DNA from: a virus
Lineage: Duplodnaviria; Heunggongvirae; Uroviricota; Caudoviricetes
Reading direction: 5' to 3' (one strand)
Length of the DNA: 44,851 nt
Virus record (IMG/VR): IMGVR_UViG_2974654489_000001
Coordinates: 1 to 44,851 of that record
The notes under the pieces were generated by a model. That model saw only the letters and a program-made list of their open reading frames with translations. It had not been told where the DNA came from and searched no databases. Shown piece by piece: positions 9,732 through 19,168 of the stretch. A program made the translations under genes and the position numbers. Position 1 is the first letter of the stretch. The number at the start of each line of letters is the position of its first letter.

Positions 9732-10244
9732 ATGCCGCTAATCGTGGAAACGGGAGAAATCGTCCCTAATGCCGACAGTTACATTAGCCTGGCGGACGCC
9801 CGTGCGTTAGCGGCTAATTACGGTCTTGAGCTACCGGTGGACGATACCGCCGCAGAGGTGGCCTTGCGCAACGGCGCTACTTATGTCGGGCTTGCAGAAC
9901 CGCAGATGTGCGGACGTCGGGTGTCGGCGGAACAGTCTCTTGCATATCCCCGCACCGGTGTTACGCTAAATGGGTTCCCTGTAGCGAACAATGTCATCCC
10001 TAAGCAGGTAATTCTTGCGCAGGTAATCGCTGCCGTTACGTATGGTGGGGGTACTGAGGTGCGGGCCAACTCCGATGGACGTTCGGTACAGACCGAGCGC
10101 GTAGAGGGTGCAGTAACCGTCACCTACTTCAACAACGGCAGCTCTGGCGCTACTACATCAATCACCGCAGCCGATGACGCCTTGCGCCCGTTACTGTGCG
10201 GCGGTCTTAACAACGGCTTCTCCTTTAACGTGTACCGGGGTTAA
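9732..10244 (+). CDS. Putative head-tail connector or structural protein
   Basis: 170 aa, in structural operon between head and tail genes; assignment by position. Confidence 0.45.
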   Translation: MPLIVETGEIVPNADSYISLADARALAANYGLELPVDDTAAEVALRNGATYVGLAEPQMCGRRVSAEQSLAYPRTGVTLNGFPVANNVIPKQVILAQVIAAVTYGGGTEVRANSDGRSVQTERVEGAVTVTYFNNGSSGATTSITAADDALRPLLCGGLNNGFSFNVYRG

Positions 10245-10861: not shown

Positions 10862-11202
10862 TGAGCTTATTTCAGTGTGATAATTGCGGGTGTGTAGAAA
10901 ACACTGCGCTCGCTTCACAAGGGTTCATTGGAATTTTCGAGAAGTTCTATGACTGGGGGTACGCCCCTGAAAGGAGAGGTAAGAGGTTATGTAGCGCTTG
11001 CGGCCCAGTGAAATACCGCGACGGCTCCGCTACAGAGTACGGGAAGTGGCACAATGTGTTCACCCGCGACTACTTACCTATAGGAGAGTTTGAGACAAAT
11101 GACGTCGGTAACCTCGTGCATAAGAAAACTAAAAGCGAGGATTATCGTCAGTATATTATTAGGTCAGATAAGGATATACCTAATACGGGGTTTGACTTAT
11201 GA
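10861..11202 (+). CDS. Small Cys-rich (zinc-ribbon-like) protein
   Basis: ATG 10861 overlapping upstream stop (TGATG); CDNCGC...CSAC motifs. Confidence 0.5.
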   Translation: MSLFQCDNCGCVENTALASQGFIGIFEKFYDWGYAPERRGKRLCSACGPVKYRDGSATEYGKWHNVFTRDYLPIGEFETNDVGNLVHKKTKSEDYRQYIIRSDKDIPNTGFDL

Positions 11203-11558
11203 GCACAGCTTTCAGTAAACGTATGCAAGGCGTTGGTACACGCCTGCTAACCAAATTCGGCAGCACAGTATCTCTGATCCGTACTGGCTCGAAAGTGTGG
11301 GATGAAGTTCTCGGTGAGTACGTCTGGTCTGCGGATGAAGTGTTGCCGTTGAAGGCTGTTCCTGTTCCGGTAAACGCGGGACTGGTAAACGGTACGACGA
11401 TTCAGGCAAGCGACATGATTGTTAAAGCCGATTACAGTGTCGTTCCGAAGATGGAAGACAAGGTGCAATTCGGTGGCGAGCAATGGTCTGTTGTAGCCAT
11501 TGAGAAGAAGATGGTTAACGATGATGTCGTGGCCTACTTTATTCAGGTGAGAAAATGA
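11199..11558 (+). CDS. Hypothetical structural protein (head-tail joining region)
   Basis: 119 aa, overlapping start and stop with neighbours. Confidence 0.5.
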   Translation: MSTAFSKRMQGVGTRLLTKFGSTVSLIRTGSKVWDEVLGEYVWSADEVLPLKAVPVPVNAGLVNGTTIQASDMIVKADYSVVPKMEDKVQFGGEQWSVVAIEKKMVNDDVVAYFIQVRK

Positions 11559-11950
11559 GTTTCGCGCTTGATGTATCTAAGTTCGTAGAAAAGGCGAAGA
11601 AGAACCCTGAGAAGGTGATGCGTCAGGTGTCTATTAAGCTGTTTTCCGCTATTATAAAGACAAGCCCGGTAGACACAGGCCGCTTTCGTATGAACTGGAT
11701 GGCATCTGGTGGCACTCCTGCTTTCGGAACTACAGACGCTACGGATAAATCAGGAAACACGGCAACAGGAAACGCTACAAGTTTCGTACTGAAAGCCACC
11801 GACTGGCGCGAGTTCACGCTGACTAATAACCTGCCGTATGCGCAACGGCTGGAGTACGGTTGGTCGCAACAGGCTCCACAAGGCATGGTCAGGACTAATG
11901 TGTCACGCTTCCAGCAACTAATTAACGAAGAAGCCAACAAGGTGAAATAA
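11555..11950 (+). CDS. Tail completion / neck protein (HK97 gp10-like)
   Basis: Motif SPVDTGRFRMNW resembles the HK97 gp10 family signature. Confidence 0.55.
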   Translation: MSFALDVSKFVEKAKKNPEKVMRQVSIKLFSAIIKTSPVDTGRFRMNWMASGGTPAFGTTDATDKSGNTATGNATSFVLKATDWREFTLTNNLPYAQRLEYGWSQQAPQGMVRTNVSRFQQLINEEANKVK

Positions 11951-12363
11951 TGGGCTACTTTGAGGACTTAACCAAAGCGTTCGATGTGCCGCTGGTAGCC
12001 TTCGGAACCACCAACGGCATCAGGGTAGCGCTTGAGAACATCGACGCGCCGACGTCAACCGATACGCCGTATCTGGCAAGTTACATGTTGCTGGCGGATA
12101 CGGAGCAGGCGGATTTGTTCTTTACGGAACAACGCTCCGGCATCTATCAGGTCGACATTAACTACGCATCGGTGAAAGGTAGCGCGCCAATCAATAAAAT
12201 GGCAGACTTACTTAACACGGCATTCAAAGCAGGTAAGTCATTTTCACGTAACGACATCTGCGCCGAGGTTCAATCGGTTAGCCTGGGGCCGCTGATTGTA
12301 GAAAACGGATGGGCCAAACGGCCATTGTCAATTAACTTTATCGCATTCACCAAGAGGCTGTGA
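11950..12363 (+). CDS. Putative tail terminator protein
   Basis: 137 aa immediately upstream of major tail protein; positional. Confidence 0.45.
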   Translation: MGYFEDLTKAFDVPLVAFGTTNGIRVALENIDAPTSTDTPYLASYMLLADTEQADLFFTEQRSGIYQVDINYASVKGSAPINKMADLLNTAFKAGKSFSRNDICAEVQSVSLGPLIVENGWAKRPLSINFIAFTKRL

Positions 12364-12365
12364 AT

Positions 12366-13532
12366 ATGGCTACAACTCCTTTTAAGGGCGCGAATACCGC
12401 GCAATTCTATGTGGCGGAAGTTACCCCGGGCGTGACCCCAGACAACCCTGTCTGGTCGCCGTTGCGTAACACTGGCGGTGTTCCAGCTATTACCCGAGAC
12501 ACGCTGACCTCCAACGAACTGGACGGCAGCCGTGAAACTACATCCATCCGCACCGGCAACAAGCAGGTTAGCGGAGAATACGCTATTGAGCTTAGTTCGA
12601 AAAGCCAGGACGACTGGCTGGCGGGTGCTTTAGGCTCCACGTGGCAATCCGGTAGTTCTCTGACAGGGCTATCAATTACCGTCGCGCCCGCCGGCAAGAC
12701 GTTCACACGCGCCGAAGGTAGCTTTATTACCGACGGCGTTGAAGTGGGCGACCTGATTGCGTTTACCGACTTAACGGGTGATAACGCAAAACCGTTTATT
12801 GTTACCGCAGTAGATGCTCTGGCAGTAACCGGTGCTGGTATCCAGCACACTCTGACCGCAGAGACTGCCACTACCGCTGCTAAGACCGGCGACAAACTGG
12901 AAACCGGCAGTCAGTGTAAGACGTTCTCTATTCTCACCTGGTACAAAGGCCAGTGCGGCGGGGCCAGTGTATATACGCTGACCAAAGGCGTAGAAGTTTC
13001 CGGTTTTACCATCGAACAGGCGGTTAATGCAATGGTAACTGGCAGCTTCCCGTTCATCGGTCGCACTCAGGAGATTCTCACCGAGCAGCCGTCCGGTTCC
13101 GATTTCTCATCTGTTACGTTTGGCGATGAGCCTTTCTCTTCGGTTGACGTTTCCGTGTTCGATGGCTCTACGCCGTTGCGCTGCGACAGTCTGACCATCA
13201 CCAACGACAACAGCGCGTCCGCACAGTTCGAACTTGGCAACACTAACGTTGCGTTTGTGGAGCGTAGTCGCGCGGCTAACACCTTCTCCATCTCTGGTAA
13301 GCTGTACGACATGGCGATGATTCAGAAGTTTATCAACGAGCAGCAGGTGGAGATTAACTCTATTCTGGCGGGGGTAAACGGGGCTATGTCTTTCAGCCTG
13401 AAACGCGCAGAGCTTACGGCTGTTACACCAGAGATTGGGGGGCCAGAGTCAATCACCCAGTCCATTGAAGGGCAGGCTACTGGCAACCAGTACCAGTCGT
13501 CTATTGTCATCCAGCGTATCACCTACGCATAA
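12366..13532 (+). CDS. Major tail protein
   Basis: ATG 12366 after AAGAGG RBS; T/S/G-rich beta-type protein followed by strong terminator; positional. Confidence 0.6.
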   Translation: MATTPFKGANTAQFYVAEVTPGVTPDNPVWSPLRNTGGVPAITRDTLTSNELDGSRETTSIRTGNKQVSGEYAIELSSKSQDDWLAGALGSTWQSGSSLTGLSITVAPAGKTFTRAEGSFITDGVEVGDLIAFTDLTGDNAKPFIVTAVDALAVTGAGIQHTLTAETATTAAKTGDKLETGSQCKTFSILTWYKGQCGGASVYTLTKGVEVSGFTIEQAVNAMVTGSFPFIGRTQEILTEQPSGSDFSSVTFGDEPFSSVDVSVFDGSTPLRCDSLTITNDNSASAQFELGNTNVAFVERSRAANTFSISGKLYDMAMIQKFINEQQVEINSILAGVNGAMSFSLKRAELTAVTPEIGGPESITQSIEGQATGNQYQSSIVIQRITYA

Positions 13533-13535
13533 AAC

Positions 13536-13561
13536 TAAGGCCCCTTTCGGGGCCTTTTTCT
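13536..13561. terminator. Bidirectional intrinsic terminator (AAGGCCCC-TTTC-GGGGCCTT)
   Basis: 8-bp GC stem with A tract upstream and T tract downstream between convergent genes. Confidence 0.7.
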
Positions 13562-14115
13562 TACAAACCTAATTTTAAAGCAATGTCTATAACGTTCGAT
13601 TTAACGTCACCCGGTATGATATAGGTGTCGTAATCTTTTACACCACTAACATCATACAGGTAGCCACGGCTATCCCCGTCAAACGTGTAGCCGTCTCGGT
13701 GCAAGCGAACAATTCGCACGTCATGCCCAGCGGCGACGATAGGGGCCACTTCACTGGCGAATCCACCGTCGGAAACTACAAAAACTTCGTTGCCGCCGGG
13801 CAAGTTTTCAGCAAGATACTTACCGAAATAATCACTACCAAGTACCGGTTTAATGAATTGTTCAGAGATAGCAATCATGAACTGACGTCGCGACAAACCA
13901 TTAAGGAAGCCTTCCGGCTTTTCTTTCCGCGCTCGGTCGTCGTAGCCGTCGAGAAATTCGTGGTAAGCATCAGGGCCTAACGCCGCCAGGGCAATATTGA
14001 ACATTGGATTCTTGAAACTGGCAGTTCCTTTTGCAAAGCCCATTTCTACCAGCGCCATAGCAAGAGTGTCTTTCCCGCAACCAGCAGGACCATTAAGAAT
14101 AATTACCTTAGCCAT
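13561..14115 (-). CDS. P-loop nucleotide or nucleoside-monophosphate kinase
   Basis: Walker A ILNGPAGCGKDT at N-terminus; overall layout resembles phage dNMP kinases. Confidence 0.6.
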   Translation of the reverse strand: MAKVIILNGPAGCGKDTLAMALVEMGFAKGTASFKNPMFNIALAALGPDAYHEFLDGYDDRARKEKPEGFLNGLSRRQFMIAISEQFIKPVLGSDYFGKYLAENLPGGNEVFVVSDGGFASEVAPIVAAGHDVRIVRLHRDGYTFDGDSRGYLYDVSGVKDYDTYIIPGDVKSNVIDIALKLGL

Positions 14116-14600
14116 TATTTATCACTCCCGTGCGATTTTAAGTGTGTAGAGTTCCCGTTACAGTCGTATTCAGTAACCGCGTGAGTGGTTATACCGAGGC
14201 CGCGGAAATGCTTTATTACCGCTGGCGAGTCGTCGAACGCACACAAGATTCTTTCTAGCCCGATCGCACGCAACACTTCTTCTTTAATTACGATGTCTTT
14301 TCTGTTGTCGTGTTTGCTGCGCATGATTAGCTGATAAAATTCGACGCGGTGGCGCTGCAACCACATTCTGGTTTCTTTTTCTGCGTCATCACTACGGCCC
14401 GTTAAGATAATAACGGCATAGCGACGATTAAGGGCGTTACACAGTTCGATGTTATCCCTAATGGGTTCATCATCTTTGCACGCCATGTTAAATGGCTTCC
14501 ACGCCCATGTTTCGTTGTAGTTATCTTTCGGCAGCAGGTGTAAACGATGCGTACCATCCGCCAATGTTCCATCTAAATCGAAAATTACAATGTCTTTCAT
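14115..14600 (-). CDS. HAD-superfamily phosphatase (polynucleotide 3-prime phosphatase or nucleotidase-like)
   Basis: HAD motif I FDLDGTL at residues 7-13; further motifs (ILTGR, RKDIVIKEE, FDDSP) resemble the phosphatase domain of T4 polynucleotide kinase as recalled from memory. Confidence 0.6.
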   Translation of the reverse strand: MKDIVIFDLDGTLADGTHRLHLLPKDNYNETWAWKPFNMACKDDEPIRDNIELCNALNRRYAVIILTGRSDDAEKETRMWLQRHRVEFYQLIMRSKHDNRKDIVIKEEVLRAIGLERILCAFDDSPAVIKHFRGLGITTHAVTEYDCNGNSTHLKSHGSDK

Positions 14601-15727
14601 CCCAGCATCTCCGGTGAAATAGTTAAACGTGCGACCTCGCCATATTCGGCGCTATAAGTAATTACATTTGCACTACGGCCTGACATCCATCCGCCGCGGG
14701 AAGCGTAGGCATCTTTCGCCGCCAGGGTGCGGTGTTGCTCAACAATCATGTTACGGCTTTCTACGATCTTCTGGTGATGCAGGTGGCCTACGTGGGCGTA
14801 GCTATAGACACTCTCACCGAACGCTTTGCGGAACTTAGCGATCATAACCGGTTCAATAGCGTCGAATCGTGCTTTATGTCCGTGGTGGAAGAACAGGGTC
14901 GTTTTGCCGTGCTGCACCATCTTATAAACATCCGGCGACGTATCGACGAACACACGCGGCTCATTGTCGTACAGCGTACTGAACATCTCAGCTAACCAAA
15001 TCATCCCACTTTCGTCGTGGTTCCCCTGCACGATAAGCAAGCGAACATTTTTATGTTTAACGAGAGCCATATCAACAACACGGCGGACCATACGGATCAT
15101 GTAGCGGACCAGTTTCTGGTAGCGCGTGTCAGCGTCAAGAACATTACCGCTTGCCGGGGTAACGGCAACCAGACTGTCGAAGTGCGCAAGGTCGCCTAGC
15201 AGGTTAATAACACCCGTACCCGCGTCTGGTGCTTTCTGGAATGCCGCGTCGAACCAGCGGGAGAACAGGTCTTCCGCGATTTTCATGTCCCAGTCGTCTC
15301 CGCTCTCGTCGCCCCAGGCCAGCATACCGAGATGGAAATCAGATATCGTGTAAAGATTGAGTAGCTTGTCGTCGCGTTTAGCTCGAGTCGCTTTAACAGG
15401 CGCAACTGGGGTAATCTCTGACTTCATCCCCTCAATTACGGCTTTCATCAACTCGACCTGACGCTCGACATCGGTGTCAGTCTTAACCCATTGCAATTTA
15501 GTGTTGCCAAACTCGTCCACCAGGGACGACGTCCCTTTAATCTTGTAGCCGTCCGGTACAAGGTGACTAACGTCACGCCCGTGGCCCACGCCTTTCTTTG
15601 CCAGTTTCGCTTTGCGGATACGAATAACGCGGTCTGAGATGCCGTATTTACGGGCGATATCGATATTCTTCATACCGGCGTTCAATTCTTCCTGCAACTG
15701 TTCGTCGGTTATTTTCTTCCGGGCCAT
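14597..15727 (-). CDS. Calcineurin-like metallophosphoesterase with N-terminal HTH domain
   Basis: Motifs DFHLG, GDLAHFD, QGNHDE, HHGH, GHLHH; N-terminal IDIARKYGISDRVIRIRKAKL helix-turn-helix. Confidence 0.7.
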   Translation of the reverse strand: MARKKITDEQLQEELNAGMKNIDIARKYGISDRVIRIRKAKLAKKGVGHGRDVSHLVPDGYKIKGTSSLVDEFGNTKLQWVKTDTDVERQVELMKAVIEGMKSEITPVAPVKATRAKRDDKLLNLYTISDFHLGMLAWGDESGDDWDMKIAEDLFSRWFDAAFQKAPDAGTGVINLLGDLAHFDSLVAVTPASGNVLDADTRYQKLVRYMIRMVRRVVDMALVKHKNVRLLIVQGNHDESGMIWLAEMFSTLYDNEPRVFVDTSPDVYKMVQHGKTTLFFHHGHKARFDAIEPVMIAKFRKAFGESVYSYAHVGHLHHQKIVESRNMIVEQHRTLAAKDAYASRGGWMSGRSANVITYSAEYGEVARLTISPEMLG

Positions 15728-15764
15728 GCTTATTCCTCGTGCTTAGGATTTGTCCTATACTAGC

Positions 15765-15971
15765 TTACTTCTCGTTAACATTCGAGTTGCACGCCCAGAT
15801 TAAAATAAAGACCCACGGCAGCAGAACCCAACCAAGAAACAGATTGGCCATGAATATCGCCAACTTCGCTTTATGGTCGCGGAAATACGCAACCAGGAAA
15901 GGTGCGAAATAGGCGAGCAGTGCAAACAGAATTAAGGAAACCGGTAAACTTGACATTTTAAACCCCTTCAT
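15765..15971 (-). CDS. Small two-TM membrane protein resembling superinfection immunity (Imm) proteins
   Basis: LLAYFAPFLVAYFRDHKAKLAIFMANLFLGWVLLPWVFILIWA matches the Imm-type family pattern as recalled; RBS GAAGGGG. Confidence 0.55.
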   Translation of the reverse strand: MKGFKMSSLPVSLILFALLAYFAPFLVAYFRDHKAKLAIFMANLFLGWVLLPWVFILIWACNSNVNEK

Positions 15972-15979
15972 TGTTGGTG

Positions 15980-16016
15980 TAAGTGAATAGTACCCTATTA
16001 TATTGGGGTGTGCAAG
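15980..16016 (-). promoter_or_regulatory. Leftward promoter cassette CTTGCAC-N7-TATAAT-AGGGTACTATTCAC with inverted repeat AATAG-N4-CTATT (15986-15999)
   Basis: Near-identical to cassettes at 6036-6076 and 38348-38387. Confidence 0.5.
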
Positions 16017-16123
16017 TAGTGTGCTAGAATAAGTTTGCGCCTAGTGTCGCACACGAAAAGCGGGTGGTTCCCGTCTGGCGCATTTACCGTTAACCAGTAA
16101 CCTCTTAACCAAAGGATTAAAGA

Positions 16124-16540
16124 ATGAAACTTTCTGATTTTTATTTCGAAGAGAAAGCACTGGTGGGCAAGAAGATGCCGATTCTGCTACCAAACGGCGA
16201 AGACTCTGGTGAGTGGCTTAACGTCGTAAGTCCCGATGCAGATGCCGCCGTTAAAGCAGGGCGTGCTTTCATTATCGCGTACCGACGCGGGCTGGCGCGT
16301 TTCGAAGAACTGGAAAAATCCGCCAAAGAATCCGGCGACTATACTGAATATAACCTGGCGATTAACGAACTGGCGGAAGACCTCAACCGACAACTCGCGG
16401 CAGAAGTCGTAAACGGCTGGAGCTTTGATGAGCCTTTCTCTAAAGAAGCATTTAACAAATTGCTGGACCAGTTCAAGGCATTAGGTACACAGGTGGCGGC
16501 GTTCCATAACGCCGAGCGCAAAGCATTACAGGGAAAGTAG
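16124..16540 (+). CDS. Tail assembly chaperone (G-like)
   Basis: 138 aa acidic protein directly upstream of tape measure; slippery site near its 3-prime end. Confidence 0.65.
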   Translation: MKLSDFYFEEKALVGKKMPILLPNGEDSGEWLNVVSPDADAAVKAGRAFIIAYRRGLARFEELEKSAKESGDYTEYNLAINELAEDLNRQLAAEVVNGWSFDEPFSKEAFNKLLDQFKALGTQVAAFHNAERKALQGK

Positions 16541-16905
16541 ACGCGCTGTACAGGTTCGCCACCTACGAGTTTGTGGATAAGCATAAAATCAGAGAGTTTG
16601 ATTCTATAGCCGACGGACACGAACAGGCGCTTATCGCGATGGGTGTAATCGATAAGAAAAAACGTGCAGCGCGACGGGGTGGGCCAGAATGCCCGCCCCT
16701 TTTTATATCCACCTTTGAGACGTACTGCGACATTAAGTTTACGCGACACGTGCGCGAGGACGCTGTAGTATTGTTTGCAAGAGAATCCGTTACGTGGCAA
16801 GACCTGAAAGCCTATCTCGATGTTACGCAAAAACAGCTTAGCCTGTTCGAGATAGACATTATCATGGGCTTAGAAGCAATCTTTGAAGGTAGAAATCATG
16901 GCTGA
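16124..16905 (+). CDS. Tail assembly chaperone GT-like fusion produced by programmed -1 frameshift
   Basis: The -1 frame is open from 16510 to 16905 and joins the G frame at heptamer G GGA AAG. Confidence 0.55.
16531..16537 (+). other. Programmed -1 ribosomal frameshift slippery heptamer GGGAAAG
   Basis: X XXY YYZ heptamer in the zero frame of G, 1 codon before its stop; the same heptamer is used at lambda G/T. Confidence 0.6.
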
Positions 16906-19168
16906 TACCGCTAGTTTGATAGTACGAGTATCATCGACCGGCGTCGATAAAACCACATCACAACTGAACGGGCTTACGAAGGCGGCTGGGGCCGCTGCTG
17001 CTGCCGTCGTCAGTCTGGAAACCGCTAAGCAGGTGTTCAGCGCGCTGGTGGACTCTCAGCGCAACTTCGATAAGCTGAATTCCGGCCTCATCACAATGAC
17101 CGGAAGTGCTGAGAACGCGGCTAAGGCTTTCAGCGTCCTGCAACAGTTCGCGAAAGAAACCCCATACGGGCTTAACCAGGCGGTGGAAGGCTTTACTAAG
17201 CTGGTGGCTCTGGGTCTGAATCCCAGCAAAGAAGCGTTAATCTCCTATGGCAACACCGCCGCCGCGATGGGTAAAGACCTTAATCAGATGATTGAGGCCG
17301 TGGCAGACGCCAGTACCTTTGAGTTTGAGCGACTGAAAGAGTTTGGCATCAAGTCGTCACAGCAGGCAGATACAGTGTCGTTCACGTTCCGCGGTGTTAC
17401 CACCACGGTTAAGAAGAACTCCGAAGAGATTCAGAAATACCTGCTAAACATCGGTAACACTGATTTCGCCGGGGCGATGGAAACGCGTTCGAAAACCCTT
17501 GACGGGCAGTTATCGAGCCTCGCGGACTCCTTCGATGGCCTTGTACTTGCGGTAGCGCAATCCGGTTTCGGCGACGCCGTAGGTGAGCAAGCCGCGAAGG
17601 CAGAAGACGCTATTTCGGCACTCACCGACGCCATCGCATCTAATGAGATAGCAGCGACGCTCCAGGATTGGGCGACACTGTTCAATGAATCGTTCAAGTT
17701 TATTTCTGATGCCCTGAATGACCTGGCATTCGATACCGAGGACAAATCCGCGGATATGTCAGACTCGCTGGGGGCTATACCTGATGCAATCCGTGAATGG
17801 TTGCCCGACATTCAGCAGACATTCCATGAGGTTATTGCATGGTTCCAGCGCATTGACGATTATGCGGTAGCGCTTGGCCGGACCCTCGCCGACGTGTTTG
17901 ACCCAAGCAAAACAGCGGCGCTCACATTTAAAAACCTGACCGCAGAGGCAGATGCCGCATACGACGCCAGCATAAAACGCGCAGAGGCAGAATCACAGGC
18001 CATTACCAACAGGTCTAAGCAGCGTAAGAAAGAAATTGAGGAACAGCGCAAGCAGTATAATGAGCGCAAGAAACAAGAAATTGACTTAGCCAGCCTTGTT
18101 AATAACAAGGGTGAAAATGGTGGGACCGGAAACACCAACGACAAAGACGCGAAAGCCGCCGCTAAGAAAGCGGAGCAATTGCGCAAACAGGCACAGGATT
18201 ATCTCGACACTTTGGCCCGTCAGAACAACGACGAGATAAAGGCTATTGACGCGCAGGAACAGCAGAAACTGGCTAAGGCAAAAGAGTTCTACAGCCAGGG
18301 CGCACTGTCACTGAAAGAATACGAGCAAGCAAAAACCGCTATTGTCCTAGAAGCAGGGCAAAAACGACAAGATGAACTGGATAAACGCCAGAAAGAAGCC
18401 CAGGAAAAGCAACAGAAAGGTGACGACTTCATGGCCCAGATTATGGGGCAGAACGCGACTGAGCTTGAGCTTCTCGACATCCAGGAACAGCAGAAGCTGG
18501 CGGTAGCTGATAAGTACCGCGAACAAGGGCTGATTAAAGAGGAACAGTATCAGGCGGCACTTAACGCCATCAACGAGCAGTATGCTACGAAGCGTGCTGA
18601 CGCAACGGCAACCGCCTTTGGTAATATGGCTTCAAACATCGGGGCCGCGTTGGGCGAGGCTTCTGGTGCGTACAAGGCATTCGCTATCGTGCAGGCCACT
18701 ATCGCCACATACACCGCGGCTATTGAGGCGTATAAGTCAACGGCTGCCATCCCTGTAGTCGGCCCGTTCCTGGCTCCTGTAGCTGCCGCCGCTGCCGTTG
18801 GGGCGGGTATGGCGCAGGTTTCCGCTATCAGGTCTGCGCGTGAACAGGGCGGTCAGTTATCTGCAGGGCAGGCTTCCACCATCGCGGAACGCGGTAAACC
18901 GGAAGTTATCATGCCCGCTGGTGCATCGCGCGTACGAACTGCGCAGCAGATGAAAGAAATTATGGGGCAAAACGGGTCTTCTTCCGGCGGTGATAATGTC
19001 ACCATAGTCAACAACACCACAGGGCGTGTGGATTCCGCCGTAACAGAACGTGATGACGAAGGGCGTTTACGTATTATAATCAGTGAAACAGTAGCGTCGC
19101 AGTTACAGGATAACAACTCACCGATTTCTAAAGCTCGCCGCTCTACTCGCGGTCAGCCGGGGTATTAA
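16898..19168 (+). CDS. Tail tape measure protein
   Basis: About 756 aa, alanine- and coiled-coil-rich, hydrophobic segment near C-terminus, follows G/GT; ATG 16898 after GAAGG RBS (track starts TTG 16883). Confidence 0.8.
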   Translation: MADTASLIVRVSSTGVDKTTSQLNGLTKAAGAAAAAVVSLETAKQVFSALVDSQRNFDKLNSGLITMTGSAENAAKAFSVLQQFAKETPYGLNQAVEGFTKLVALGLNPSKEALISYGNTAAAMGKDLNQMIEAVADASTFEFERLKEFGIKSSQQADTVSFTFRGVTTTVKKNSEEIQKYLLNIGNTDFAGAMETRSKTLDGQLSSLADSFDGLVLAVAQSGFGDAVGEQAAKAEDAISALTDAIASNEIAATLQDWATLFNESFKFISDALNDLAFDTEDKSADMSDSLGAIPDAIREWLPDIQQTFHEVIAWFQRIDDYAVALGRTLADVFDPSKTAALTFKNLTAEADAAYDASIKRAEAESQAITNRSKQRKKEIEEQRKQYNERKKQEIDLASLVNNKGENGGTGNTNDKDAKAAAKKAEQLRKQAQDYLDTLARQNNDEIKAIDAQEQQKLAKAKEFYSQGALSLKEYEQAKTAIVLEAGQKRQDELDKRQKEAQEKQQKGDDFMAQIMGQNATELELLDIQEQQKLAVADKYREQGLIKEEQYQAALNAINEQYATKRADATATAFGNMASNIGAALGEASGAYKAFAIVQATIATYTAAIEAYKSTAAIPVVGPFLAPVAAAAAVGAGMAQVSAIRSAREQGGQLSAGQASTIAERGKPEVIMPAGASRVRTAQQMKEIMGQNGSSSGGDNVTIVNNTTGRVDSAVTERDDEGRLRIIISETVASQLQDNNSPISKARRSTRGQPGY

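What the first reader, a model, noticed from the sequence alone, without database searches (positions are those of the whole stretch)
16510..16905. Lambda-type G/GT programmed -1 frameshift with the same slippery heptamer GGGAAAG
The tail chaperone ORF ends at 16540. The -1 frame is open from 16510 to 16905, and the heptamer G GGA AAG (16531-16537) sits one codon before the G stop, so a -1 slip yields a GT fusion ending inside the tape measure start region. It is the same heptamer used at lambda G/T.
Basis: partly seen in the sequence, partly recalled or inferred. Interest (0 to 1): 0.4.

Follow-up and report, generated by a model that had tools for sequence, protein, structure and literature searches.

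The report
Tail chaperone G/GT -1 frameshift site
This is the ordinary programmed -1 ribosomal frameshift that makes the long form of a phage tail-assembly chaperone. Only this genome among its close relatives has the lambda heptamer. What the ~90 relatives compared share is A_AAG, an abutting stop codon and a long-range RNA stem.

Summary
G (16124-16540) ends in caG GGA AAG TAG, and the heptamer 16531-16537 abuts the stop. The -1 frame is open 16510-16905 and ends 8 nt inside the tape-measure gene (ATG 16898).

The window is a Kagunavirus (K1G-like, Guernseyvirinae). RefSeq K1G already annotates the homologous joined G-T CDS, so the frameshift itself is known and ordinary.

New detail from comparison:
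- All 90 relatives keep A_AAG followed at once by TAG or TAA, never TGA, with A or C as the next base.
- The 5' half of the heptamer varies. GGAAAAG dominates, and CGCAAAG, AGCAAAG, GGTAAAG and AAAAAAG also occur.
- GGGAAAG is found only in this genome, through one A-to-G change at 16533, and in one distant metagenomic relative.
- G and T show no detectable homology to lambda G and T.
- A long-range RNA stem starts 4-5 nt after the slip site (window 16542-16551 with 16664-16673, 10 bp, -20 kcal/mol). It is kept with compensatory changes. One clade pairs with a 3' arm about 125 nt downstream and another with one about 195 nt downstream.
- T has no conserved start codon and evolves under purifying selection in the -1 frame.

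Verdict: a real -1 frameshift and a new member of a known kind. Interest is modest.

The parts
16124..16540 (+). G: tail assembly chaperone, short form (138 aa), zero frame
   Evidence: ORF listing. Pfam Phage_TAC_4 at 7.4e-6, above its cutoff. phrog_15027 positions 1-138 at 3.4e-70.
16531..16537 (+). Slippery heptamer G_GGA_AAG in X_XXY_YYZ phase. G16537 is read twice.
   Evidence: It is the only copy on this strand.
16533..16533 (+). Lineage-specific G (A in close relatives). It turns the family motif G_GAA_AAG into the canonical G_GGA_AAG and changes residue 137 from E to G.
   Evidence: BUCT825 matches the window over 80 nt except at this base. None of 39 close phage records is 100% identical over that stretch. 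The 23-mer containing the heptamer has no exact match in IMG/VR.
16534..16537 (+). A_AAG tetranucleotide, the part of the slip site that is invariant across the family
   Evidence: Present in every relative examined.
16538..16540 (+). G stop codon TAG, directly abutting the slip site, followed by A
   Evidence: In 90 relatives: TAG 65, TAA 25, TGA 0; next base A 77, C 13. A 36%-identical homologue also has the stop adjacent to its slip site.
16542..16551 (+). 5' arm of the long-range stem (CGCGCUGUAC). It starts 4 nt after the heptamer.
   Evidence: MFE fold. RNAalifold consensus. Covariation counts. Duplex -20 kcal/mol and pair probability at least 0.95 in local folds.
16664..16673 (+). 3' arm of the long-range stem (GUGCAGCGCG). 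It lies in the variable linker of T.
   Evidence: Compensatory changes, for example GCGTTGCT/AGCAACGC and GCGTTGTTTC/GAAACAACGC.
16537..16905 (+). T segment: the 122 codons read in the -1 frame after the slip, forming the C-terminal half of GT
   Evidence: Pfam Phage_TAC_18 at 7e-19. phrog_15027 positions 152-259. Variable sites by -1-frame codon position are 3/3/22 in 17 close relatives.
16676..16704 (+). Strong hairpin (9 bp, 8 G-C) plus T5 inside T, 2 nt after the 3' arm. It looks like an intrinsic terminator. Its role is unknown.
   Evidence: Hairpin at -20.6 kcal/mol, with covarying outer pairs in many but not all relatives.
16898..19168 (+). Tape measure protein gene. Its start overlaps the end of T by 8 nt (ATGGCTGA).
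   Evidence: phrog_1538 at 3e-194.

Best explanation
Most ribosomes translating G terminate at TAG 16538-16540 and make the 138-aa chaperone. A minority slip back one base on G_GGA_AAG (16531-16537). In that slip tRNA-Lys moves from AAG to AAA and tRNA-Gly moves from GGA to GGG. Those ribosomes then read GTA GAC GCG... in the -1 frame up to TGA 16903-16905 and make a 260-aa G-T fusion. By analogy with lambda, the G part would bind the tape measure protein and the T part would recruit tail-tube subunits.

Two features probably promote the slip (inferred). One is a 10-bp long-range stem whose 5' arm starts 4 nt after the heptamer (16542-16551 with 16664-16673). The other is the abutting, probably slowly decoded stop codon (UAG followed by A).

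The family's ancestral signal is the weaker single-tRNA site A_AAG. In this genome an A-to-G change at 16533 adds cognate P-site re-pairing, so it should shift more often than its relatives do.

Shown here: the sequence layout, its conservation, the covariation in the stem, and purifying selection on T in the -1 frame. Inferred: that the slip happens, how often, and which features stimulate it.
For: - Layout and fusion product.
- Homologous joined CDSs are annotated in K1G RefSeq (782 nt span = 261 codons with one base read twice) and in Smarc3.
- A fusion-length PHROG profile covers G plus T. Pfam TAC_4 hits G and TAC_18 hits T.
- All 90 relatives keep A_AAG plus TAR at codon 138, with the -1 frame open from the slip to the tape-measure start.
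- K138, V139, A141, L142 and A146 just after the slip, and F159, D160, I162, G165 and H166, are invariant at 45-55% identity.
- The first ATG/GTG/TTG in the -1 frame ranges from +8 to +323 nt. The window's GTG 16573 is GTT or GTC in 4 of 17 close relatives.
- Variable sites in T fall 3/3/22 by -1-frame codon position.
- Stem, clade 1 (28 sequences): RNAalifold predicts it as the only consensus helix; 93.7% of cells paired; 3 pairs with double changes; 0 of 500 shuffles reach the observed paired fraction or covariation score; slid controls give 19-52%.
- Stem, clade 2 (36 sequences): 91.5% paired over 15 bp; 4 compensatory pairs; 0-2 of 500 shuffles; slid controls 23-50%.
- G.U pairs in the stem fit an RNA structure on the sense strand.
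- In E. coli reporters A_AAG alone is barely shifty and needs a stimulator. G_GGA_AAG is among the three best heptamers (PMC4066793).
Against: - There is no experimental evidence for this phage or its family. I found no proteomics or reporter data.
- The 4-nt spacer is at the short end for -1 stimulators.
- The stem closes a loop of about 112 nt, and its pair probability drops to about 0.37 when the whole T region is folded.
- A local 100-nt fold downstream of the site is no better than shuffles, z = -0.17.
- The conserved A or C after the stop is also a codon position in T, so protein constraint could explain it.
- The G at 16533 rests on one genome and could be a sequencing error or a neutral variant.
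Confidence: 0.85

Rival explanations
1. The slip is not a two-tRNA event on the heptamer. It is a P-site slip of tRNA-Lys from AAG to AAA while the slowly decoded stop codon sits in an empty A site (a 'shifty stop'). On this view the G at 16533 is largely irrelevant. The protein product is identical.
For: The stop abuts A_AAG in 90 of 90 relatives and in a 36%-identical homologue, and it is never TGA. Most relatives have P-site codons that cannot re-pair in the -1 frame: C_GCA, A_GCA and G_GUA. The 'shifty stop' concept comes from Weiss et al. 1987, as cited in PMC5009743.
Against: The stem sits where a stimulator would act while A_AAG is still in the A site. A_AAG A-site slippage without P-site re-pairing is documented for IS1222 and Bacillus cdd (PMC5009743). 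With GGGAAAG, tandem slippage is available in this genome.
Confidence: 0.3
2. The frameshift is real, but the long-range stem and the adjacent hairpin do not stimulate it. Instead they control transcription or translation of the tape measure gene, for example by attenuation at the terminator-like hairpin 16676-16704, by affecting mRNA stability, or by masking internal starts.
For: A terminator-like hairpin with a T-run lies 2 nt after the 3' arm. The hairpin recurs in many relatives with covarying outer pairs. The 3' arm sits at two different places in two clades, which a strict stimulator geometry does not obviously require.
Against: The 5' arm always starts 4-5 nt after the slip site, whichever 3' arm is used. 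That is the geometry of -1 stimulators. A_AAG needs a stimulator in E. coli. The hairpin is missing in the Jersey-like and several other lineages.
Confidence: 0.2
3. T is made as a separate protein by its own initiation (GTG 16573) or by termination-reinitiation after the G stop. No fusion is made. Many GenBank records annotate it this way.
For: Separate T ORFs are annotated in ST20, Bas74, Sciku, Jersey and others. Jersey-like genomes have a TTG 8 nt after the stop with an AGGA upstream. The Shashou announcement states that there is no canonical slippery sequence (PMC6776780).
Against: No start codon is conserved: the first one ranges from +8 to +323 nt, and in more than 35 genomes it lies beyond conserved T residues. 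The window's GTG is GTT or GTC in close relatives and has no SD. The invariant A_AAG-stop and the coding conservation straight after the slip would be unexplained.
Confidence: 0.05

Closest known systems
Phage lambda G/GT -1 frameshift (Levin et al. 1993; Xu, Hendrix and Duda 2004, 2013, 2014, as cited in PMC5009743)
   Same: Same heptamer G_GGA_AAG in the same phase at the 3' end of the chaperone gene. Same -1 direction. The T frame ends overlapping the tape-measure start. These points were checked on NC_001416. The presumed roles of G and GT are the same.
   Different: No detectable protein homology: hhalign probability 0.5%, and Pfam TAC_4 + TAC_18 against lambda's TAC_2 + Phage_tail_T. Lambda's stop lies 5 codons after the heptamer, whereas here it abuts. 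Here a covarying long-range stem follows the site. Here a 2.6-kb reverse-strand module separates the tail-tube-like gene from G.
Escherichia phage K1G ORF22A/ORF22B (RefSeq NC_027993, joined CDS 'tail assembly chaperone') and Serratia phage Smarc3 'pre-tape measure frameshift protein'
   Same: Direct homologues (96% nucleotide identity for K1G). Same site, same stop, same stem and same 260-aa product length.
   Different: They carry G_GAA_AAG, not G_GGA_AAG. Most other records of the family leave the frameshift unannotated.
A_AAG tetra/hexanucleotide -1 frameshifting (IS3, IS1222 G_CGA_AAG, Bacillus subtilis cdd A_CGA_AAG)
   Same: The family-invariant core is A_AAG, with P-site codons that often cannot re-pair. 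This kind of site needs a downstream stimulator in E. coli (PMC5009743 and PMC4066793).
   Different: Those systems use a nearby pseudoknot, hairpin or SD. Here the partner arm lies about 112-190 nt away, and a stop codon always abuts the site. The window itself has a full heptamer.
E. coli dnaX (A_AAA_AAG with a downstream stem-loop and an upstream SD)
   Same: tRNA-Lys slips on AAG in E. coli, with a stem a few nucleotides downstream. Two relatives (L072, L074) even carry A_AAA_AAG.
   Different: No conserved upstream SD-like element appears in the alignments. The product here is an extension, not a truncation.
Long-distance -1 frameshift stimulators of plant RNA viruses (for example barley yellow dwarf virus; from my own knowledge, not checked here)
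   Same: The stimulatory pairing partner lies far downstream of the slip site.
   Different: A eukaryotic system with a kilobase-scale distance and a different architecture. It is only a loose analogy.

Membership tests
Phage tail assembly chaperone G/GT -1 frameshift (Xu et al. 2004 class) | Two overlapping ORFs directly upstream of the tape measure gene, with the second in the -1 frame | tested here: met
   G 16124-16540; -1 frame open 16510-16905; TMP ATG 16898.
Phage tail assembly chaperone G/GT -1 frameshift (Xu et al. 2004 class) | The pair lies between the major tail (tube) gene and the tape measure gene | tested here: inconclusive
   The order is kept. However, the tail-tube-like gene (12360-13529, phrog_290 'minor tail protein') is separated from G by four reverse-strand genes at 13561-15971.
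Phage tail assembly chaperone G/GT -1 frameshift (Xu et al. 2004 class) | A slippery sequence in the overlap, in the correct phase | tested here: met
   G_GGA_AAG at 16531-16537. A_AAG is kept in all relatives.
Phage tail assembly chaperone G/GT -1 frameshift (Xu et al. 2004 class) | The downstream frame is a conserved protein without a conserved start of its own | tested here: met
   Pfam TAC_18. Invariant residues just after the slip. First start codon ranges from +8 to +323. Variable sites 3/3/22 by codon position.
Phage tail assembly chaperone G/GT -1 frameshift (Xu et al. 2004 class) | A fusion protein is made at a low fixed ratio and is needed for tail assembly | not testable with these tools
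   This needs proteomics, a reporter assay or genetics. I found no published data for this family.
Lambda gpG / gpT protein families (Pfam PF06894, PF06223) | Sequence homology to lambda G and T | tested here: not met
   hhalign probability 0.5%. The Pfam families differ.
Canonical X_XXY_YYZ heptamer -1 PRF | The heptamer allows both tRNAs to re-pair | tested here: met
   The window has G_GGA_AAG. This heptamer is among the most efficient in E. coli.
Canonical X_XXY_YYZ heptamer -1 PRF | The heptamer is conserved among homologues | tested here: not met
   A canonical heptamer occurs only in the window, L125 (GGGAAAG) and L072/L074 (AAAAAAG). The other 87 or so relatives are non-canonical.
Canonical X_XXY_YYZ heptamer -1 PRF | A stimulatory RNA structure a few nucleotides downstream | tested here: met
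   A covarying stem starts 4-5 nt after the site. Whether it actually stimulates the slip was not tested.
Z_ZZN (A_AAG) single-tRNA -1 frameshifting (IS3 / IS1222 / cdd type) | A conserved A_AAG with a P-site codon that need not re-pair, plus a stimulator | tested here: met
   This holds for the family: A_AAG is invariant and the P-site codons are GAA, GCA, GUA, AAA and GGA. The stem is as described above. The window itself goes beyond this type because it has a full heptamer.
Known RNA families (Rfam 15) | A match to a curated frameshift element or other RNA family | tested here: not met
   No match at E <= 1 in 16300-17000.

The most novel reading that the evidence does not exclude
Guernseyvirinae G/GT recoding uses a signal not yet described for phage tail chaperones. 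It combines a non-canonical A_AAG site, an obligatory abutting UAG/UAA stop in a weak context, and a covarying long-range stem that closes a loop of about 112-190 nt inside the T coding region. The stem's 3' arm has moved between clades. The window phage is a natural 'up' allele, because one base creates the canonical lambda heptamer. Together with relatives carrying GAA, GCA, GUA and AAA at the P-site codon, it forms a natural allelic series for how much the G:GT ratio can vary.
Probability: 0.55. Interest if true: 0.5.

Novelty: new member of a known kind. Interest (0 to 1): 0.3.

Why it matters
The frameshift itself is textbook and matters mainly for correct annotation. Records in this subfamily are inconsistent. 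Some join G and T. Many call T a separate 'hypothetical protein' starting at a doubtful CTG, TTG or GTG codon. One genome announcement says no canonical slippery sequence exists. The comparison gives a simple rule for the whole group: join at A_AAG|TAR.

For people who study recoding there are three testable points:
- a stop codon always abuts the slip site;
- a long-range stem has real compensatory changes, and its 3' arm lies at different places in two clades;
- this genome differs from a close relative (BUCT825) by a single base across the 80 nt around the site, and that base should raise slippage.

Lambda tail assembly depends on the G:GT ratio, so that base pair of genomes offers a clean natural test.

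Tried and rejected
- **Local hairpin or pseudoknot right after the site:** the 100-nt fold is no better than shuffles, z = -0.17.
- **Rfam:** no match.
- **Homology to lambda G/T:** none.
- **Solved structures by sequence:** nothing credible, best E = 0.08.
- **Heptamer frequency as evidence:** not significant, 2 copies against 4.9 expected.
- **Upstream SD-like stimulator as in dnaX:** nothing conserved in the 30 nt upstream.
- **Stop-codon readthrough:** rejected from the sequence, because the zero frame runs only about 22 more codons to the next stop.
- **Transcriptional slippage:** rejected for the window, because its A-run is only 3 long. It could apply to the distant homologue L219, which has A9.
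- **T as a decaying pseudogene:** rejected by the third-position bias of substitutions.
- **Literature:** searches for Kagunavirus, Guernseyvirinae or Jerseyvirinae with 'frameshift' gave only the Shashou note. Licznar et al. 2003 on NNA_AAG motifs is not held.
- **Metagenome pattern scan:** almost all hits were chance. Only 1 of the loci returned by the pattern scans encodes a relative.
- **Genome-contig scan:** two loci, one a probable phage contaminant and one a distant homologue. For that single distant sequence no stem could be assigned.

Full report
**What is in the window**

The G ORF runs 16124-16540 (138 aa...ALQGK*). Its last bases are caG GGA AAG TAG, so the heptamer G_GGA_AAG sits at 16531-16537 in the X_XXY_YYZ phase. 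It directly abuts the stop at 16538-16540.

The -1 frame is open from 16510 to TGA 16903-16905. It overlaps the tape-measure ATG at 16898 by 8 nt. A -1 slip gives a 260-aa protein with the junction ...QGK|VDALYRF. The only slip is the wording 'one codon before the stop'.

The heptamer by itself is not rarer than chance, with 2 copies in the window against 4.9 expected. The significance lies in its context.

**What the genes are**

- G matches Pfam Phage_TAC_4, and the -1 ORF matches Phage_TAC_18.
- The next gene is a tape measure protein.
- phrog_15027 has 259 positions. G fills 1-138 and T fills 152-259, so the family is modelled on fused proteins.
- The window is a Kagunavirus (K1G-like, Guernseyvirinae). 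The closest record is ST20, at 98% over the locus. Across 20 kb the best match is about 89% over 75%, so the genome itself is not in the phage collection.
- RefSeq K1G annotates a two-piece 'tail assembly chaperone' CDS of 782 nt, which is 261 codons with one base read twice. Serratia phage Smarc3 has a 'pre-tape measure frameshift protein'.
- Most other records list T as a separate hypothetical protein.
- One genome announcement for this subfamily says there is 'no canonical slippery sequence' (PMC6776780).

**The slip site across relatives**

I collected about 90 relatives, down to 44% protein identity, from phage records and IMG/VR.

Every one has a G of about 138 aa ending in A_AAG followed at once by a stop. 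The counts are TAG 65, TAA 25 and TGA 0. The base after the stop is A in 77 and C in 13.

The 5' half of the heptamer varies:

| Motif | Genomes |
|---|---|
| GGAAAAG | 65 |
| CGCAAAG | 9 |
| AGCAAAG | 6 |
| GGTAAAG | 5 |
| AAAAAAG | 2 |
| GGCAAAG | 1 |
| GGGAAAG | 1 (this window only) |

- BUCT825 is identical to the window over 80 nt except for A at 16533.
- No close phage record is 100% identical across that stretch.
- IMG/VR has no exact match to the 23-mer containing the heptamer.
- A pattern scan of metagenomes found one distant relative (L125, 61% identity) that also has caGGGAAAG TAG.
- A 36%-identical homologue in a Kistimonas genome has A_AAA_AAA followed directly by TAG A.

So the conserved signal is A_AAG plus an abutting stop. 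The lambda heptamer here comes from one A-to-G transition, which also changes residue 137 from E to G.

**Is T really read by frameshifting?**

- Residues K138, V139, A141, L142 and A146, then F159, D160, I162, G165 and H166, are invariant across 45-55% identity.
- The first possible start codon in the -1 frame ranges from +8 to +323 nt after the stop. In many genomes it falls beyond those residues.
- The window's only early candidate, GTG 16573, has no SD-like motif. It is GTT or GTC in 4 of 17 close relatives.
- Among those 17 relatives, variable sites in T fall 3/3/22 by -1-frame codon position.

This fits a protein read in the -1 frame from the slip site onward. It does not fit independent initiation.

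**A long-range stem**

The 8 bases that begin 5 nt after the first base of the stop have a perfect complement downstream in nearly every genome.

In the clade that includes the window, the partner lies about 125 nt downstream. The window forms CGCGCUGUAC (16542-16551) with GUGCAGCGCG (16664-16673). That is 10 bp at -20 kcal/mol, with pair probability at least 0.95 in local folds and 0.37 when the whole T region is folded. Relatives show compensatory pairs such as GCGTTGCT/AGCAACGC and GCGTTGTTTC/GAAACAACGC.

| | Clade 1 (includes window) | Clade 2 |
|---|---|---|
| Non-redundant sequences | 28 | 36 |
| 3' arm position | about 125 nt downstream | about 195 nt downstream |
| Helix tested | 9 bp | 15 bp (8-16 bp per genome) |
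| RNAalifold result | the only consensus helix | the only consensus helix |
| Cells paired | 93.7% | 91.5% |
| Pairs with double changes | 3 | 4 |
| Shuffles reaching the observed values | 0 of 500 (paired fraction, covariation score) | 0-2 of 500 |
| Slid controls, % paired | 19-52% | 23-50% |

Clade 2 uses the same 5' arm. Its compensatory changes also alter amino acids on both sides, for example GCGCTGTTGAAAT/ATTTCAACAGCGC. G.U pairs point to an RNA structure on the sense strand.

The 5' arm always starts 4-5 nt after the slip site, which is where -1 stimulators sit. In E. coli reporters A_AAG alone is barely above background and needs a stimulator. Its maximum is about ten-fold below the best heptamers, and G_GGA_AAG is among the top three (PMC4066793).

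I therefore infer that the stem stimulates the slip, and that this genome shifts more often than its G_GAA_AAG relatives. Neither inference has been tested.

**Comparison with lambda**

On NC_001416 the heptamer G_GGA_AAG lies at 10109-10115 in the same phase, and T ends overlapping H. However, the G stop lies 5 codons downstream.

There is no detectable homology between the two GT proteins (hhalign probability 0.5%), and the Pfam families differ. The resemblance is in organisation and mechanism. The shared heptamer is convergent.

**Open points**

- Whether the slip is a tandem P/A-site event or a P-site slip at a slowly decoded stop cannot be told from sequence. Both give the same protein.
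- The A or C after the stop fits weak termination contexts (general knowledge of E. coli termination, not tested here). It is also a codon position in T.
- A strong hairpin followed by T5 at 16676-16704 looks like an intrinsic terminator inside T. It recurs with covarying outer pairs in many but not all relatives. Its role is unknown.
- No experimental data for this family were found.

**Verdict**

This is a real and ordinary G/GT -1 frameshift, already annotated in a close relative. It carries a private canonical heptamer and sits in a family whose cis-signal (A_AAG, abutting stop, long-range covarying stem) has, as far as I could find, not been described.

Noticed in passing
window 16676-16704 (+): An intrinsic-terminator-like element lies inside the T coding region. 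It has a 9-bp stem (8 G-C), a 6-nt loop and then TTTTT, and it begins 2 nt after the 3' arm of the long-range stem. The hairpin overlaps the GPECP codons. It recurs in many relatives with covarying outer pairs (AA..TT, GA..TC, AC..GT) but is absent in the Jersey-like and several other lineages. It might attenuate transcription into the tape measure gene or stack on the stem.
   Followed up: partly
window 13561-15971 (-) and 15972-16123: Four reverse-strand genes (dNMP kinase-like, polynucleotide kinase, DNA repair exonuclease, superinfection immunity) sit between the tail-tube-like gene (12360-13529) and G. G-GT-TMP must therefore start a new plus-strand transcription unit. The sigma-70 consensus scan found no plus-strand promoter-like site in the 152-nt gap.
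   Followed up: partly
window 11199-11558 and 11555-11947 (+): The ORF at 11555-11947 matches only positions 120-250 of the 250-position 'tail completion / Neck1' profile phrog_17193. The preceding 119-aa ORF overlaps it by ATGA. Together they add up to the profile length, so the two may be fused, or annotated as fused, in other phages.
   Followed up: no
L219 1039-1050 (Kistimonas scapharcae contig NZ_BAABFL010000468.1): A 36%-identical G homologue in a bacterial genome ends in a run of nine A (A_AAA_AAA) followed directly by TAG A, with a 100-aa -1 ORF after it. A tail-tube-like gene lies immediately upstream. The slip-site/stop adjacency therefore extends well beyond Guernseyvirinae. An A9 run could also allow transcriptional slippage.
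   Followed up: partly
L218 (NZ_JACVEL010000023.1, labelled Taishania pollutisoli): A 13-kb scaffold in a Bacteroidota genome assembly encodes a Jersey-like G/GT at 54% identity to the window. It is probably phage contamination of the assembly rather than a prophage.
   Followed up: no
window 14070-14076 (-): This is the only other GGGAAAG in the window. It lies in the P-loop (GKD) of the dNMP kinase-like ORF in the phase GGG_AAA_G, so it is not a slippery heptamer.
   Followed up: yes
L037, L050-L054 (IMG/VR contigs), offsets +118..127 and +194..208 from the G stop: These relatives carry complements to the 5' arm at both positions: 10 bp at about +118 and 11-15 bp at about +200. Two alternative long-range stems could form. 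This may be an intermediate state in the relocation of the 3' arm between clades.
   Followed up: no
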